Source: Candidatus Yanofskybacteria bacterium (GTDB lineage: Bacteria; Patescibacteriota; Minisyncoccia; 2-02-FULL-40-12; IGHO2-01-FULL-4-A). Taken from it: a stretch of DNA of 64,000 bases. The first letter of the stretch is position 1. Each line of letters starts with the position of its first letter. Under the pieces are notes generated by a model. That model searched no databases, was not told the DNA's origin, and worked only from the letters and a program-made list of their open reading frames with translations. A program made the position numbers and the translations under genes. Shown here in pieces: positions 31,123 to 64,000 of this stretch. The stretch is from positions 51,299 through 115,298 of the forward strand of contig JACPNJ010000002.1 in NCBI GenBank assembly GCA_016185545.1, given 5' to 3'.

Positions 31123-31222
31123 AGCCTAAACCTGCTTAACGGCTGGCATGGCACCAAACCACCTGCATACCAAACTTGTCGTTTGGCTTCCACACATGTG
31201 GTTATAGAGGAAACTCTATAAG
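31123..31222 (+). repeat. boundary element R1 (agcctaaacct ... ggcatggcac ... cacctgcat-hairpin-cacatgtggt), imperfect direct repeat of R2
   Basis: shared blocks with 38205..38313 read directly; possible structured ncRNA or att-like site. Confidence 0.45.
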
Positions 31223-31695
31223 AGAGCTTCTGCTCTCAGCCAGACGACTTTTTTATTGCTTGTTTAATCGAAAAAAGATCTGATTTTCAAGATCTTGCTG
31301 AAGAATAAAAGAATTACTATGACTTAAGATCCCCATATAGGAATGGATGGTATGGTCAAGTGACTCATAAGACAACGACCCTTGGTTTAAAAGATTCTCC
31401 CCCGAATTTTACCTGGTAGCAGTCCTTTAGTTTTCTCGGGACATCTACGCTGAAATAAAACACGTAGTTTCGTAGTTTTTACTACTTTCCGGCCACGCCA
31501 CTTCTTATAGCCAGGGCCATAAGAACTCCGGTGGATATCAAAAAGAGGAGGTTCGTAAGATTAAACCAGCCTGAGCCGGGCCCAATCTCTATTAACAAAA
31601 CTCCATGACATTATCACATAAAATACCCAGCCATAAAAGGTCTGGTAAAATTCTTCTTTAGGCTGTATATTTATATGTAAAAGTCCAATCTCACT

Positions 31696-38204: not shown

Positions 38205-38313
38205 AGCCTAAACCTAGAGATTATTCTATAGGCATGGCACTAAATATACCCACCTGCATTCTGAACCCGTCGTTCAGCTCCATGCAGGTGGTCTATATCC
38301 GAAAGGGTATAGG
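38205..38313 (+). repeat. boundary element R2: nested hairpin CCACCTGCAT[tCTGAACccgtcGTTCAGctc]CATGCAGGTGG, followed by GNRA-tetraloop hairpins
   Basis: imperfect direct repeat of R1; inverted repeats read directly. Confidence 0.45.
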
Positions 38314-38388
38314 AAGGCGAAAGCCTTCGGCTAGCGGCGGGCTTTGAGTTTAAAGAAGCCCCCCGTTGGTTAAGAAATCCACCTGCGT

Positions 38389-61866: not shown

Positions 61867-62361
61867 CTAGTCAGACCCCAGCAACTCTTTTGTAATTTTA
61901 CTAACTATTCCGCCATCTGCTCTACCTTTGAGTTTTGCCATAACCGCGCCGATTACTTTACCCATATCTTTGACTCCGGCGGCACCGACTTCGGCTATGG
62001 TTTTTTGCACTTCAGCGCGGACCTCGCTTTCACCAAGCTGTTCTGGCAGATAAGACAGCAAAATATCCATTTCCGATTTTTCTTTCTGCGCCAATTCATC
62101 CCGTCCGCCGGTTTTAAACTGCTCCATCGCCTCTTTGCGCTTCTTAACCTCTCCGGCAATTACTTCAATAACCTCTTCGTCCGTCAACTGGCTCTGCTTT
62201 TCCAACTGCACGACTTGCGATGTCGTACGGCTTAATTGAACACGTTTTGTCAACTCTTTATTCTTAACCGCCGTCATCACCATACCCAAAACCAACCGCT
62301 TGAGTTGGTCACCCGATTTCAACGACTCATTAAGGTCTTTTTGTAGTTTTTCTTTTAACAT
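61867..62361 (-). CDS. GatB/YqeY-domain protein
   Basis: 164 aa; YqeY-family sequence. Confidence 0.75.
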   Translation of the reverse strand: MLKEKLQKDLNESLKSGDQLKRLVLGMVMTAVKNKELTKRVQLSRTTSQVVQLEKQSQLTDEEVIEVIAGEVKKRKEAMEQFKTGGRDELAQKEKSEMDILLSYLPEQLGESEVRAEVQKTIAEVGAAGVKDMGKVIGAVMAKLKGRADGGIVSKITKELLGSD

Positions 62362-62399
62362 TGACTCAGTTAGTAATTTTGTTAGGATGATTCTGCCTT

Positions 62400-62466
62400 G
62401 GGGCTGGTCTGGGACGAGCCCAATCTTGACAGTTGGGTCTCGGGGGTTCGATTCCCCTCGGCTCCA
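62400..62466 (+). ncRNA. tRNA-like / tmRNA tRNA-like-domain-like element (no D or anticodon arm)
   Basis: 5' GGGGCUG pairs with 3' CGGCUCC including a G3·U70 wobble; discriminator A; canonical T-arm GGGGG-TTCGATT-CCCCT; D-loop analogue GUCUGGGACGAG resembles the tmRNA 5' region; only a short hairpin replaces the anticodon arm / helix 2. Confidence 0.4.
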
Positions 62467-62577
62467 AGGCTGAAAGAAATATCAACAGGTATTATTATTG
62501 ACTTTTGAAATAGGCCTTGCTACAATTACATTAACTGTCAAGATTGGGCTTCAGAGTTCCAGATGAGACTCGCCATT

Positions 62578-62598
62578 ACCCGCATCAGCGGGTTTTTG
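62578..62598 (+). terminator. intrinsic terminator acccgc-atca-gcgggt + TTTTT
   Basis: ~110 nt downstream of the tRNA-like element, same strand. Confidence 0.55.
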
Positions 62599-62828
62599 GT
62601 TATTCGGGATAAAAACTTTATCTTTAGCTGTAAAAACCCTTATTTTTAGGCATTTTTGAGCATTTTCCCTACAAAATCTTTTACCATCCTACCACTCAAA
62701 CAAAAATTGATTTGAAATCTCAAAAATTACAATTACTGGAAGCCACGCCCTTTTTGCAAAAAGGGCGGGGTGATTTTTATCACTCCGATCCAGCCGTTCT
62801 CTATCAACAAAAGTTGTGCTACGCCGAG

Positions 62829-62983
62829 CTAGGGGGATGATCCTCTGGGGACTTCTGGGGTTGCCGCCAGCATGGTTTTGTCAATGACCGAACGAAGTGA
62901 GTGTCTTGACAAATGGCGGCAATCACAAAAGATGAAAAAATCTCGCTGGGATTTTTGAAGTTCACCAGAGGGTCATCCCCTAG
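62829..62983. repeat. 155-nt element bounded by 19-20-nt inverted repeats (ctagggggatgatcctctgg ... ccagagggtcatcccctag) with nested internal inverted repeats
   Basis: inverted repeats read directly (internal TTGCCGCCA/TGGCGGCAA and TTGTCAA/TTGACAA); lies immediately 3' of rpsU. Confidence 0.4.
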
Positions 62984-62989
62984 CGAGGC

Positions 62990-63253
62990 CTATAGCCCGA
63001 GCTTTTGTTTAACTTTTTTCTTTTCATCTTCAAACGTCTCCTCATCATATTGCCCCAGCCGTTCCAGCCGTTTTCTCAATCCACGCAATTCCTCACGCAT
63101 AATCGCGCGGTTCTTCTCAACGCGCTCAGTCGGTTTCTTGCGAAAATACCTGGCAGATTTGGCGCGAACCAAAAGACGGCTCTGTTGAACCAGCCGGCTG
63201 AATCGCCTCATCAGCGACCCGATACTCTCATTTGGTTTTCGTTTAACCTCCAT
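62990..63253 (-). CDS. rpsU: 30S ribosomal protein S21
   Basis: SIGSLMRRFSRLVQQSRLLVRAKSARYFRKKPTERVEKNRAIM matches the S21 family. Confidence 0.85.
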   Translation of the reverse strand: MEVKRKPNESIGSLMRRFSRLVQQSRLLVRAKSARYFRKKPTERVEKNRAIMREELRGLRKRLERLGQYDEETFEDEKKKVKQKLGL

Positions 63254-63765: not shown

Positions 63766-63836
63766 GTTACAGGTTACAGGTTACAGGTTACAGGGAAATT
63801 TTTCTTACCTGGCCCCTGAAACCTGACACCTGAAAC
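63766..63836. repeat. AGGTTAC x4 heptamer array plus complementary arm (acctggcccctgaaacctgacacctgaaacct)
   Basis: read directly; the 3' arm shares acctggcccctg with the glyA intragenic insertion. Confidence 0.7.
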
Positions 63837-64000
63837 CTAGTTTTTTAGTCGTTGTTTTACCATTTCTAAAATTTTATCCTGCAGTACGGTTTCCTGCACC
63901 CCTGAATTCATCTCACGTAATATAACCGTACCATCTAACGCTTCTTTCTGACCCATAATTAAAGTATATTTAATCCCAAGGCGATTAGCGATTCTTAATT
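63837..64000 (-). CDS. C-terminal anticodon-binding domain of a class II aminoacyl-tRNA synthetase (His/Pro/Thr-type), partial at the window edge
   Basis: translated C-terminus ...GIKYTLIMGQKEALDGTVILREMNSGVQETVLQDKILEMVKQRLKN* resembles the HisRS/ProRS anticodon-binding domain. Confidence 0.45.
   Translation of the reverse strand, partial: LRIANRLGIKYTLIMGQKEALDGTVILREMNSGVQETVLQDKILEMVKQRLKN

What the first reader, a model, noticed from the sequence alone, without database searches (positions are those of the whole stretch)
62400..62598. tRNA-like element with a tmRNA-style acceptor, T-arm and G3·U70 but no D or anticodon arm, plus a 16-nt long-range complement and a terminator
At 62400..62466 the sequence GGGGCUG-GUCUGGGACGAG-...-GGGGG-UUCGAUU-CCCCU-CGGCUCC-A forms a 7-bp acceptor stem. 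The stem contains the G3·U70 wobble, the alanine identity element shared by tRNA-Ala and tmRNA, and ends in discriminator A. There is a canonical T-arm and a D-loop analogue resembling the 5' region of tmRNA (E. coli GGGGCUGAUUCUGGAUUCGACGGG). In place of the anticodon arm there is only a short hairpin (GAGCCCAAU[CUUGACA]GUUGGGUCUC), and the whole element is 67 nt. The 16 nt AGCCCAAUCUUGACAG (62417..62432) is perfectly complementary to 62535..62550, which sits ~100 nt downstream. An intrinsic terminator follows at 62578..62598, so a ~200-nt plus-strand transcript with alternative foldings is likely. Candidates are a highly reduced or unusual ssrA (tmRNA) gene, a tmRNA remnant left by island integration into ssrA, or a novel tRNA-like RNA. 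It does not fit a standard one-piece tmRNA, which would have its T-arm at the 3' end. It does not fit the permuted two-piece layout either, where the 3' acceptor should precede GGGGCUG.
Basis: partly seen in the sequence, partly recalled or inferred. Interest (0 to 1): 0.6.

Follow-up and report, generated by a model that had tools for sequence, protein, structure and literature searches.

The report
tmRNA-like mini-RNA with antisense partner
A 67-base RNA gene that looks like only the tRNA-like end of the ribosome-rescue RNA (tmRNA) lies next to a second small RNA gene whose 5' end is its exact antisense. The same two-gene RNA pair, with co-varying sequences, recurs in many unrelated bacteria, which points to an undescribed RNA-against-RNA control (or toxin-antitoxin-like) module aimed at the translation machinery.

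Summary
Positions 62400-62466 (+) encode a 67-nt tRNA-like RNA with a 7-bp acceptor stem, G3.U70, discriminator A, a canonical T-arm and a tmRNA-type D-loop analogue. A 9-bp hairpin stands where an anticodon arm or tmRNA body would be. The complement is 18 nt perfect (62417-62434 vs 62533-62550) and is followed by a terminator.

It is not one 200-nt transcript, a relic or a split tmRNA. A strong promoter (62498-62526) puts a transcription start exactly at the complement. This defines a separate ~65-nt sRNA that is antisense to the 5' half of the tRNA-like RNA.

About 35 loci from other lineages carry the same pair: Saccharibacteria, other Patescibacteria, Gracilibacteria, Eremiobacterota, Pirellulaceae, many metagenomes and a few viral contigs. 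Their sequences differ but always match their own partner. The partner occurs in all four gene arrangements, and helix mismatches are mostly G.U. Rfam's tmRNA model is the best hit for these mini-RNAs but stays below threshold.

Related Yanofskybacteria lack the module at the same site. No tag ORF, smpB or conserved protein neighbour was found.

Best reading: a TLD-only tmRNA homologue held in check by a dedicated antisense sRNA. The anatomy is shown; the function (SmpB/AlaRS decoy, toxin-antitoxin-like) is inferred.

The parts
62361..62388 (+). Promoter-like site of the tRNA-like RNA gene (TTGACT-16-TAGGAT with TG). The predicted start is about 62395, which gives a ~5-nt leader.
   Evidence: Conserved in L003/L004. 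Most family members have a -10 box 5-30 nt upstream of G1.
62395..62399 (+). Short 5' leader GCCUU. With the discriminator A73 it can pair with the trailer AGGC (62467-62470) and extend the acceptor stem in the precursor. Removal by RNase P is inferred.
   Evidence: Read directly from the sequence. Similar leader/trailer pairing followed by a U-run in L209 and L191. Inference only.
62400..62466 (+). 67-nt tmRNA-TLD-like RNA. Acceptor 62400-62406/62459-62465 with G3.U70; D-loop analogue 62407-62415; hairpin 62416-62441 (loop 62425-62431, CUUGACA); T-arm 62442-62458; discriminator A 62466.
   Evidence: [quoted passage not shown]
62498..62526 (+). Promoter of the antisense sRNA (TTGACT-17-TACAAT, extended -10 TG, 10 of 12 consensus matches). 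The predicted start is 62532-62534.
   Evidence: Conserved in L003/L004. In 17 of 24 family members a -35/-10 pair ends 2-7 nt before the start of the complement.
62533..62598 (+). Antisense sRNA of about 65 nt ('anti-TLD'): 5'-terminal antisense segment, a short spacer, then the terminator hairpin.
62533..62550 (+). Core antisense segment. It is an 18-nt perfect complement of TLD 62417-62434 (5' strand of the hairpin, the whole loop and 3 nt of the 3' strand). With G.U pairs it extends to 62531-62551.
62556..62571 (+). Weaker continuation of the antisense. GUUCCAGAU (62556-62564) pairs with the D-loop analogue GUCUGGGAC (9 bp, 2 of them G.U). GAGACUC (62565-62571) can pair either with the acceptor 5' strand (5 of 7) or with the hairpin 3' strand GGGUCUC (7 of 7, one G.U).
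   Evidence: RNAcofold dimer: -77.5 kcal/mol, 27 kcal/mol better than the two monomers, with TLD nt 2-36 engaged. The same pattern appears in L242, L110, L170 and others.
62578..62598 (+). Intrinsic terminator of the sRNA (ACCCGC-AUCA-GCGGGU plus U-run).
   Evidence: Every family member has a comparable hairpin plus U-run 40-90 nt after the start of the complement.

Best explanation
The locus is a two-gene, all-RNA module.

Gene 1 (62400-62466) makes a stable 67-nt RNA homologous to the tRNA-like domain (TLD) of tmRNA. It keeps the acceptor stem with the alanine identity pair G3.U70, the discriminator A, the T-arm and the D-loop analogue. Helix P2 is closed by a 7-nt U-turn-type loop. It has no pseudoknots, resume codon or tag frame.

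Gene 2 (about 62533-62598) has its own strong promoter. It makes a ~65-nt sRNA whose extreme 5' end is antisense to the TLD loop and hairpin 5' strand, and more loosely to the D-loop analogue and acceptor 5' strand.

Proposed mechanism:
1. The single-stranded 5' end of the sRNA nucleates on the exposed loop.
2. It then invades the hairpin and zips through the D-loop analogue.
3. This abolishes the L-shaped fold. The elements needed by AlaRS, EF-Tu, RNase P and SmpB are lost, and the duplex is possibly exposed to RNase III.

The TLD RNA itself most likely acts on the trans-translation or translation apparatus. A TLD-only molecule can titrate SmpB and block tmRNA, or can accept a stalled peptide without tagging it. 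The pair therefore works as an antisense-gated inhibitor or modulator of ribosome rescue, organised like a trans-encoded type I / type VIII toxin-antitoxin pair.

Status of the steps:
- Shown: the anatomy, two transcription-unit signals, partner-specific co-variation at the RNA level, and sporadic module-like distribution.
- Inferred: unfolding of the TLD by pairing.
- Speculative: the cellular target (SmpB/AlaRS/ribosome) and any toxicity.
For: 1. tmRNA-TLD nature. In the window, RF00023 aligns end to end with the middle deleted. For 14 of 15 other members tested it is the best hit in the tRNA clan, at 21.5-46.1 bits and E down to 3e-15, beating the tRNA model. The junctions between helices are 0-2 nt, as in a TLD.

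2. A family exists. Of 120 metagenome loci found with a TLD-shape pattern, 23 carry a 13-24-nt complement of their own hairpin 24-86 nt downstream on the same strand. The same holds for L110 (Saccharibacteria), L092 (Patescibacteria) and L093 (Eremiobacterota).

3. Partner specificity. Cognate complement scores are 12-22 (median 17). The 552 non-cognate pairs have median 6 and maximum 13.

4. Pairing is selected in RNA, on this strand. Mismatches inside the best diagonals, scored blind to wobble, are 18 G.U, 3 A.C and 6 other.

5. The sRNA is an independent, trans-acting transcript. In 17 of 24 members a -35/-10 pair ends 2-7 nt before the complement, and all have terminators. The partner gene also occurs convergent (L096 Gracilibacteria, L153, L229, L090), divergent upstream (L248, L205, L138) and upstream on the same strand (L223, L351), always starting at the loop complement.

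6. Predicted dimers. 23 of 24 pairs hybridise, with 22-37 TLD nt engaged. The D-analogue UGG is covered in 17 of 24 and the acceptor stem is lost in 23 of 24. ddG is -8 to -29 kcal/mol.

7. The TLD structure itself co-varies. Acceptor pairs 5-7 are canonical in 70 of 72 cells and the outer T-stem pairs in 47 of 48, using GC, CG, UA, AU and GU. Hairpins are 8-10 bp with quite different sequences.

8. Module-like, sporadic distribution. In five related Yanofskybacteria-like genomes rpsU and yqeY are 3-32 nt apart. A sixth has a different insert without the TLD. Only the window and L003/L004 carry the ~275-nt module. Neighbouring genes differ in every lineage.

9. Literature. A TLD-only RNA strongly inhibits tmRNA, perhaps by titrating SmpB (Hudson et al. 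2014, PMC4131195, citing Mao 2009). The phage DS6A TLD-only gene has no antisense partner within 600 nt. That would fit an offensive inhibitor needing no antidote, but it is a single case.
Against: - There are no expression data. The promoters, terminators and transcript ends are predictions.
- All members outside the Yanofskybacteria clade were retrieved with a pattern that forces GGGG...CUCCA (hence G3.U70), UGG and the T-loop. Conservation of those features across the family is therefore not an independent result.
- No family member reaches the RF00023 gathering score. Three pass the tRNA gathering score marginally (29.2-31.3 bits), and ARAGORN calls a few of them odd tRNAs. Descent from a compact tRNA-Ala rather than from tmRNA is not excluded. 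The window loop CUUGACA and the L110 loop CUUGCCA resemble the tRNA-Ala loop CUUGCAA.
- No smpB, alaS or other conserved protein gene lies nearby, so nothing ties the RNA to SmpB.
- Toxicity, charging with alanine and SmpB binding are all untested.
- In the window there is no terminator between the two genes. Read-through would give a cis hairpin (-91.3 kcal/mol, z -7.2), so cis and trans pairing may coexist.
- About three quarters of the TLD-shaped hits have no detectable partner.
Confidence: 0.6

Rival explanations
1. Reduced, sole tmRNA. In these genomes the 67-nt RNA is the only ssrA product. It performs tag-less ribosome rescue with SmpB, as proposed for CDS-less mitochondrial tmRNA. The antisense sRNA merely tunes its level.
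For: CDS-less tmRNAs are accepted in mitochondria and in some plastids. One Patescibacteria group ('9FT-COMBO-53-11 sp001772805') is listed as possibly lacking a tag frame (Nawrocki et al. 2025, PMC11915505). No standard tmRNA is seen in the 64-kb window or in the member loci.
Against: A standard tmRNA was found in 5252 of 6765 Patescibacteria genomes and in 148 of 202 Eremiobacterota genomes, which is about MAG completeness. The module is absent from the same site in five close relatives, which is odd for an essential rescue RNA. Only 64 kb of a 125-kb contig of an incomplete MAG was visible, so the absence of ssrA here says little.
Confidence: 0.15
2. The roles are reversed. The sRNA is the effector with mRNA targets elsewhere, and the tRNA-like RNA is its sponge or decoy.
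For: tRNA-precursor-derived sponges for sRNAs are known in E. coli (own knowledge). The sRNA carries its seed at the 5' end, like many regulators.
Against: The antisense sequences are unrelated between lineages and track only their own TLD. No other site with 3 or fewer mismatches exists in the 64-kb window. The minimal sRNAs are just antisense plus terminator (L177, L197). Complementarity of 22-37 nt covering the whole 5' half is far more than a seed.
Confidence: 0.08
3. One transcript with alternative folds. The downstream complement acts in cis and decides whether the tRNA-like fold forms or is processed.
For: The window has no terminator between the TLD and the complement. The 206-nt read-through RNA folds into the long-range helix at -91.3 kcal/mol, z -7.2.
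Against: A near-consensus promoter ends 6 nt before the complement, and this holds in 17 of 24 members. Some members terminate directly after the TLD (L209, L191). The partner is on the opposite strand or upstream in at least 9 loci, which excludes a purely cis mechanism for the family.
Confidence: 0.08
4. An unusual decoding tRNA. It would be a D-arm-reduced, alanine-accepting tRNA whose long 'anticodon' helix replaces the D/anticodon stack. It might deliberately mistranslate, with the sRNA masking its anticodon loop.
For: The loops are 7 nt with U at position 2 and a purine in the middle of the triplet (NUNRNCA). The hairpin length of 8-10 bp equals the D plus anticodon stack of a tRNA. ARAGORN calls L092 and L090 tRNAs. 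Three members pass the tRNA gathering score marginally.
Against: Position 37 is C in most loops, whereas it is a purine in functional tRNAs (own knowledge). There is no variable loop and no U8/N9. The 'anticodons' differ freely between members while the alanine identity is kept. The tmRNA model outscores the tRNA model in 14 of 15 members. ARAGORN and the tRNA model reject the window copy.
Confidence: 0.05
5. A feature without RNA function: a decaying ssrA/att relic, or DNA-level inverted repeats (an inverton or MITE ends) flanking a promoter.
For: tmRNA genes are frequent integration sites. The 18-bp inverted repeats do flank a promoter.
Against: The pair is conserved with co-variation in about 35 loci from several phyla. 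The G.U over A.C excess (18 vs 3) shows selection on RNA pairing on one strand. The repeat sequence differs in every lineage, unlike recombinase sites. No integrase or invertase lies nearby.
Confidence: 0.02

Closest known systems
TLD-only ('no CDS') tmRNA genes: mycobacteriophage DS6A, ~65-bp Mallomonadaceae plastid genes, CDS-less mitochondrial tmRNA, and the 9 'Standard, no CDS' entries of the tmRNA database (Hudson 2014, PMC4131195; Nawrocki 2025, PMC11915505)
   Same: Little more than the acceptor stem with G3.U70, the D-loop analogue, a stub of helix P2 and the T-arm. No pseudoknots and no tag frame. The size is 65-80 nt. The DS6A gene (JN698994 28478-28557) has the same layout.
   Different: The window RNA comes with a dedicated, co-varying antisense sRNA gene. 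DS6A has none within 600 nt, and none is mentioned in either paper. The module is chromosomal and found in several bacterial phyla, not in a phage or an organelle.
Standard one-piece tmRNA (Rfam RF00023) with SmpB
   Same: The 5' GGGGCUG-(N)UCUGG and the 3' T-arm/acceptor consensus. Alanine identity. It is the best-scoring Rfam model.
   Different: 328 of 374 model positions are missing: no PK1-PK4, no resume codon, no tag ORF, no stop. The score is 18.2 bits against a threshold of 47. No smpB lies nearby.
Two-piece tmRNA from circularly permuted genes (RF04321; alpha-, beta-proteobacteria, cyanobacteria)
   Same: Two RNAs held together by base pairing, encoded side by side.
   Different: The gene order is not permuted. 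The TLD is a closed, complete unit. The second RNA is antisense to the TLD's own 5' half rather than supplying a missing strand. It carries no coding part: there is no tag-like ORF in any of 24 partners, and 4 have no stop codon at all. RF04321 scores 14.1 bits.
Trans-encoded antisense pairs of type I toxin-antitoxin loci (zorO-orzO, tisB-istR1; hok/sok-type recognition of a U-turn loop by the 5' tail of the antisense RNA) and all-RNA type VIII pairs (SdsR/RyeA, CreT/CreA) (own knowledge, not tested here)
   Same: A small two-gene cassette with neighbouring but non-overlapping genes. Complementarity of about 16-23 nt located at the 5' end of the antisense RNA. The target site is presented in a YUNR-like loop. 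The antisense promoter is stronger. Distribution among close relatives is sporadic and the genomic contexts vary.
   Different: The target is not an mRNA for a toxic peptide but a tRNA-like RNA. Toxicity is not demonstrated. The complementarity extends over the whole 5' half (22-37 nt).
mascRNA / MEN-beta tRNA-like small RNAs (RF01684, eukaryotic)
   Same: A compact cloverleaf-like fold with a reduced D region. It is the second-best Rfam score (29.6 bits).
   Different: Eukaryotic nuclear transcripts released from long ncRNAs. The score is below threshold (42.5). This is a resemblance of shape only.

Membership tests
tmRNA (RF00023, standard form) | tRNA-like domain: 7-bp acceptor stem with G3.U70, discriminator A, T-arm, D-loop analogue with GG | tested here: met
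   (5' and 3' ends align to the model consensus).
tmRNA (RF00023, standard form) | mRNA-like domain with resume codon, tag reading frame and in-frame stop | tested here: not met
   Only 26 nt lie between the D-analogue and the T-arm. The neighbouring sRNA and its 23 homologues have no tag-like ORF.
tmRNA (RF00023, standard form) | Pseudoknots PK1-PK4 and a long helix P2 | tested here: not met
   328 of 374 model positions are deleted in the alignment.
tmRNA (RF00023, standard form) | Covariance-model score at or above the curated threshold (47 bits) | tested here: not met
   18.2 bits in the window; 21.5-46.1 bits in 14 relatives.
tmRNA (RF00023, standard form) | Charged by AlaRS and bound by SmpB | not testable with these tools
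   No smpB in the window or in any fetched locus by tblastn with E. coli SmpB. This is not informative about the rest of the genome.
Permuted two-piece tmRNA (RF04321) | The 3' acceptor/T-arm segment is encoded upstream of the 5' acceptor plus coding segment | tested here: not met
   The order is 5' acceptor ... T-arm-3' acceptor in one closed unit. RF04321 scores 14.1 bits against a threshold of 47.
TLD-only / CDS-less tmRNA homologues | A 65-80-nt gene consisting of the TLD plus a closed P2 stub, closer to tmRNA than to tRNA models | tested here: met
   (the tmRNA model is the best hit in clan CL00001). The layout matches DS6A.
tRNA (RF00005) | Cloverleaf with D-arm, 5-bp anticodon stem, 7-nt loop with U33 and purine 37, variable loop; model score of 29 bits or more | tested here: not met
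   No ARAGORN call and no RF00005 hit at gathering. The stem is 9 bp, position 37 is C, and there is no variable loop. Three relatives pass marginally at 29.2-31.3 bits.
Trans-encoded antisense RNA pair (type I / type VIII TA-like) | Two adjacent independent transcription units, one RNA complementary to the other | tested here: met
   Promoter and terminator scans; four gene arrangements; cognate specificity; G.U bias. Transcripts are predicted, not observed.
Trans-encoded antisense RNA pair (type I / type VIII TA-like) | The target RNA (or its product) is toxic and the antisense RNA neutralises it | not testable with these tools
   Only indirect support: a TLD-only RNA inhibits tmRNA in E. 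coli according to Hudson 2014, citing Mao 2009, and the distribution is sporadic.

The most novel reading that the evidence does not exclude
This would be a widespread all-RNA toxin-antitoxin-like or checkpoint system. The 'toxin' is a TLD-only tmRNA mimic that shuts down trans-translation by sequestering SmpB (and perhaps AlaRS or EF-Tu), or by accepting stalled peptides without offering a resume codon. A labile, strongly transcribed antisense sRNA keeps it unfolded. When sRNA synthesis stops (stress, phage-induced transcription shut-off, loss of the cassette), the stable tRNA-like RNA refolds and ribosome rescue collapses. It would be the first natural antisense regulator of the tmRNA pathway and the first TA-type module whose toxin is a tRNA mimic.
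Probability: 0.3. Interest if true: 0.88.

Novelty: new variant of a known kind. Interest (0 to 1): 0.72.

Why it matters
Trans-translation is the main ribosome-rescue pathway of bacteria and is a drug target. No natural RNA regulator of it is known, and TLD-only tmRNA genes have been treated as curiosities of phages and organelles.

Here a TLD-only homologue is found in free-living and episymbiotic bacteria of several phyla. It is always packaged with its own co-evolving antisense RNA. That gives three things:
- A directly testable hypothesis of RNA-level gating of ribosome rescue, or an RNA-only addiction/defence cassette.
- A natural design for specifically inactivating a tRNA-shaped RNA.
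- An annotation lesson. These genes are missed by ARAGORN and Rfam thresholds, or are mis-called as odd tRNAs or 'tag-less tmRNA'.

The pair is also a clean example of intermolecular co-variation that could seed a new RNA family.

Tried and rejected
1. Split tmRNA with a trans-supplied mRNA-like piece. Rejected: partner sRNAs can be as short as antisense plus terminator (44-52 nt). None has a tag-like ORF and 4 of 24 have no stop codon. The pairing also destroys the TLD rather than extending P2.

2. My first idea that the sRNA is a circular permutation of the reverse complement (pairing with loop, D-analogue and hairpin 3' strand as a pseudoknot). Replaced by the simpler colinear antisense of TLD nt 1-36 seen across the family. 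The GAGACUC segment remains ambiguous between two partners.

3. Inverton or MITE. Rejected.

4. Conserved protein partner. None found. No smpB by tblastn in any of about 360 loci, and Pfam on 27 flanking ORFs gave unrelated housekeeping genes, one IS1595 transposase and one LAGLIDADG protein.

5. The first genome-contig scan used too loose a pattern and was swamped by tRNA-Tyr.

6. MAFFT alignment of the 24 TLDs mis-registered the 5' ends. Structure statistics were therefore computed by script from anchored positions, and no covariance model was built.

7. Looked for a canonical tmRNA near members: none. This is uninformative, because only 1-14 kb per locus is held.

8. Literature searches for an antisense partner of tmRNA or TLD-only RNAs found nothing relevant. 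The one hit concerns cis-antisense reads in Aquifex.
Full report
**What is there.**
The window comes from a metagenome-assembled Candidatus Yanofskybacteria genome (Patescibacteria/CPR). Its GlyRS, YqeY and a neighbouring protein are exact matches to MBI2669766/70/67 on a 124.7-kb contig. The finding lies in a 630-nt gap between yqeY (61867-62361, minus strand) and rpsU (62990-63253, minus strand).

- acceptor stem 62400-62406/62459-62465 with G3.U70 and also U6.G67;
- discriminator A at 62466;
- D-loop analogue GUCUGGGAC;
- a 9-bp hairpin with one bulged U and the loop CUUGACA;
- T-arm GGGGG/UUCGAUU/CCCCU.

The long-range complement is 18 nt perfect (62417-62434 vs 62533-62550). These are the only two sites for that 18-mer in 64 kb even when 3 mismatches are allowed; chance expectation is 0.04. 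The terminator at 62578-62598 is picked up by the scan.

ARAGORN calls nothing here, and no Rfam family reaches its threshold. Below threshold, the tmRNA model RF00023 aligns end to end with its 328 central positions deleted (18.2 bits, threshold 47). mascRNA scores 29.6 bits.

**Two genes, not one transcript.**
The promoter scan finds two sites:
- TTGACT-16-TAGGAT at 62361-62388. This places a start about 5 nt before G1.
- TTGACT-17-TACAAT with a TG extension at 62498-62526. This one matches 10 of 12 consensus positions, and its -10 box ends 6 nt before the first base of the complement.

The complement is therefore the extreme 5' end of a predicted ~65-nt sRNA that ends at the terminator. Near-identical relatives from other samples (L003, L004) keep both genes and both promoters. 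Their only changes are G7-C66 to G7.U66 in the acceptor stem and two substitutions in the sRNA outside the 18-nt core.

**The same pair elsewhere.**
A shape pattern (GGGG..G, UGG, a short interior, T-loop, CUCCA) was scanned against GTDB genomes, JGI metagenomes and IMG/VR.

The first scan was mostly wasted on tRNA-Tyr. It still returned mini-RNAs from Saccharibacteria (L110, L124), another Patescibacteria MAG (L092), Gracilibacteria (L096), Eremiobacterota (L093) and Pirellulaceae (L090).

Among the 120 metagenome loci, 23 carry a 13-24-nt ungapped complement of their own hairpin 24-86 nt downstream on the same strand. The rest score at background.

The complementary sequences are unrelated between loci but always match their own partner. 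Cognate scores are 12-22 (median 17), against a median of 6 and a maximum of 13 for 552 non-cognate combinations.

Inside the best diagonals, scored without regard to wobble, the mismatches are 18 G.U, 3 A.C and 6 other. The helix is therefore selected at the RNA level, and both RNAs are read from the strand that carries the tRNA-like gene. This rules out a DNA-level inverted repeat.

In 17 of 24 loci a -35/-10 pair ends 2-7 nt upstream of the complement. All have a terminator hairpin 40-90 nt later.

In further loci the partner gene is convergent (L096, L153, L229, L090), divergent upstream (L248, L205, L138) or upstream on the same strand (L223, L351). Each time it has its own -10 box, and the loop complement is at its 5' end. 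A cis-only alternative fold cannot explain these arrangements. The sRNA is an independent trans-acting RNA.

In IMG/VR only about 5 of 105 hits have a partner. Most of the other viral hits are compact phage tRNA-Ala genes.

**Nature of the tRNA-like RNA.**
Features not fixed by the search pattern co-vary:
- acceptor pairs 5-7 are canonical in 70 of 72 cells;
- outer T-stem pairs are canonical in 47 of 48 cells, using five pair types;
- every member has an 8-10-bp hairpin, often with a 3'-strand bulge;
- the loop is usually 7 nt and fits NUNRNCA;
- junctions between helices are 0-2 nt;
- the D region is a 3-4-bp mini-hairpin or an unpaired stretch around UGG.

With permissive thresholds, RF00023 is the best hit of the tRNA clan for 14 of 15 members tested (21.5-46.1 bits, E down to 3e-15). 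It always matches end to end with the middle deleted. At gathering thresholds three members scrape past the tRNA model, and ARAGORN calls a few of them odd tRNAs.

I therefore file the RNA as a TLD-only tmRNA homologue, not as a tmRNA. The defining mRNA-like domain, pseudoknots and model score were tested and not met.

One limitation matters here. G3.U70, UGG and the T-loop were imposed by my pattern on all members except the window clade. Only the window, L003 and L004 show them independently.

**What the sRNA does to it.**
The sRNA is roughly a colinear antisense copy of TLD nt 1-36. In the window it has the perfect 18-mer, a 5-nt internal loop, then GUUCCAGAU opposite the D-loop analogue. 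GAGACUC follows and can pair with either the acceptor 5' strand or the hairpin 3' strand.

RNAcofold predicts heterodimers for 23 of 24 pairs:
- 22-37 TLD nucleotides are engaged;
- the UGG of the D-analogue is covered in 17 of 24;
- the acceptor stem is lost in 23 of 24;
- the gain over the two monomers is 8-29 kcal/mol.

The loop resembles the U-turn (YUNR) recognition loops of classical antisense systems, and the antisense RNA presents its complement at a free 5' end (own knowledge of hok/sok and CopA/CopT). This suggests loop-tail nucleation followed by strand invasion.

I infer that pairing unfolds the TLD, so that it can no longer be processed, charged or bound by SmpB. This step is not shown.

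The sRNA is not a trans-supplied coding piece. Some partners are only antisense plus terminator (44-52 nt). None has a tag-like ORF, and four have no stop codon in any frame.

**Distribution.**
In five related genomes rpsU and yqeY are separated by only 3-32 nt (L355, L356, L358, L359, L360). A sixth (L357) has a 664-nt insert with other promoter- and terminator-bounded RNAs but no TLD. Only the window and L003/L004 have the ~275-nt module (62362-62636). No Rfam family matches any of these inserts.

In other lineages the module sits next to unrelated genes: histidine kinase/gyrA, serS, holA/tsaE, infB, nusG, and once an IS1595 transposase. No smpB lies near any copy.

The pair therefore behaves as a small, self-contained, sporadically gained or lost cassette.

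**Comparison with what is known.**
The tmRNA database recognises three gene forms (standard, intron-containing, permuted) plus a handful of CDS-less sequences. These are ~65-bp plastid genes, the TLD-only gene of mycobacteriophage DS6A, mitochondrial forms, and two bacterial groups that 'may lack tag reading frames', one of them a Patescibacteria species (Nawrocki, Petrov and Williams 2025, PMC11915505).

Hudson et al. 2014 (PMC4131195) note that a molecule like the DS6A RNA strongly inhibits tmRNA, perhaps by titrating SmpB.

Neither paper mentions a companion antisense RNA, and my literature searches found none. I located the DS6A gene (JN698994 28478-28557). It has no partner within 600 nt on either strand.

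Most Patescibacteria and Eremiobacterota genomes have a standard tmRNA (5252 of 6765 and 148 of 202). The mini-RNA is therefore more likely an extra gene than a replacement, but I could not check the carriers' full genomes.

**Most likely function.**
Combining the anatomy with the reported inhibitory effect of TLD-only RNAs, the best-supported model is an antisense-gated decoy of the trans-translation/alanylation machinery. It is organised like a trans-encoded type I or all-RNA type VIII toxin-antitoxin pair: a stable tRNA-shaped RNA, a strongly promoted antisense RNA, and sporadic distribution.

Rivals, with my estimates:
- a reduced sole tmRNA doing tag-less rescue under antisense control (0.15);
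- sRNA as effector with the TLD as its sponge (0.08);
- a cis alternative fold (0.08; it may coexist in the window, where read-through would fold at -91.3 kcal/mol, z -7.2);
- an unusual alanine-accepting decoding tRNA (0.05);
- a relic or DNA repeat (0.02).

**Verdict.**
The feature is a member of a previously unreported, phylogenetically broad two-RNA module. The architecture and RNA-RNA co-variation are well supported. The biochemical role is inferred and needs the experiments listed under next steps.

Noticed in passing
window 62823-62990 (+): A ~165-nt near-perfect long hairpin lies next to the rpsU stop codon. It folds at -91.1 kcal/mol (z -9.2) on the + strand and -74.3 (z -7.2) on the - strand, so G.U pairs favour the + strand. 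No Rfam match. L003/L004 have a different GC-rich hairpin at the same place.
   Followed up: partly
window 62637-62780; L003 1940-2310 (minus strand); L357 2100-2500 (minus strand): The rpsU-yqeY gap acts as a small 'sRNA island'. A conserved block (AAACCCTTATTTTTAGGCATTTTTGAGCATTTTCC) and a hairpin terminator (62746-62767) are shared with relatives. L003/L004 and L357 additionally carry promoter- and terminator-bounded RNAs of about 230-270 nt. These differ from each other and match no Rfam family. Most relatives have no gap at all.
   Followed up: partly
window 38205-38328 and 31123-31237 (+): Two LOOT RNA (RF03000) copies, scoring 79.8 and 49.9 bits.
   Followed up: no
window 63766-63845: A short tandem repeat (GGTTACA x3) and repeated CCTGAAAC motifs lie between the HIT-family gene and the next gene.
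   Followed up: no
IMG/VR loci such as L252, L258, L268, L273, L277, L278: A large group of almost identical 71-nt phage genes (GGGGCAGTAGTGGGCTACGG...CCTTGCAAG...). They look like compact tRNA-Ala(UGC) with a reduced D-arm and have no antisense partner. They may be the kind of ancestor from which partnered mini-RNAs with CUUGACA or CUUGCCA loops arose.
   Followed up: no
L111 6982-7150; L180 305-452; L210 4512-4757: Tandem pairs of mini tRNA-like genes with G3.U70 but no detectable antisense partner. About three quarters of all TLD-shaped hits are partnerless. Their nature (odd tRNA-Ala, partnerless TLDs, or a distant partner) is open.
   Followed up: no
L242 1-642: One family member sits about 230 nt downstream of the 3' end of a 16S rRNA gene, that is, in or next to an rRNA operon spacer where tRNA-Ala usually lies.
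   Followed up: no
L209 8732-8975 (minus strand); L191 1280-1385: In these members the leader and trailer extend the acceptor stem by 5-6 bp and are followed directly by a U-run. The whole tRNA-like RNA then forms the terminator hairpin of its own gene.
   Followed up: no
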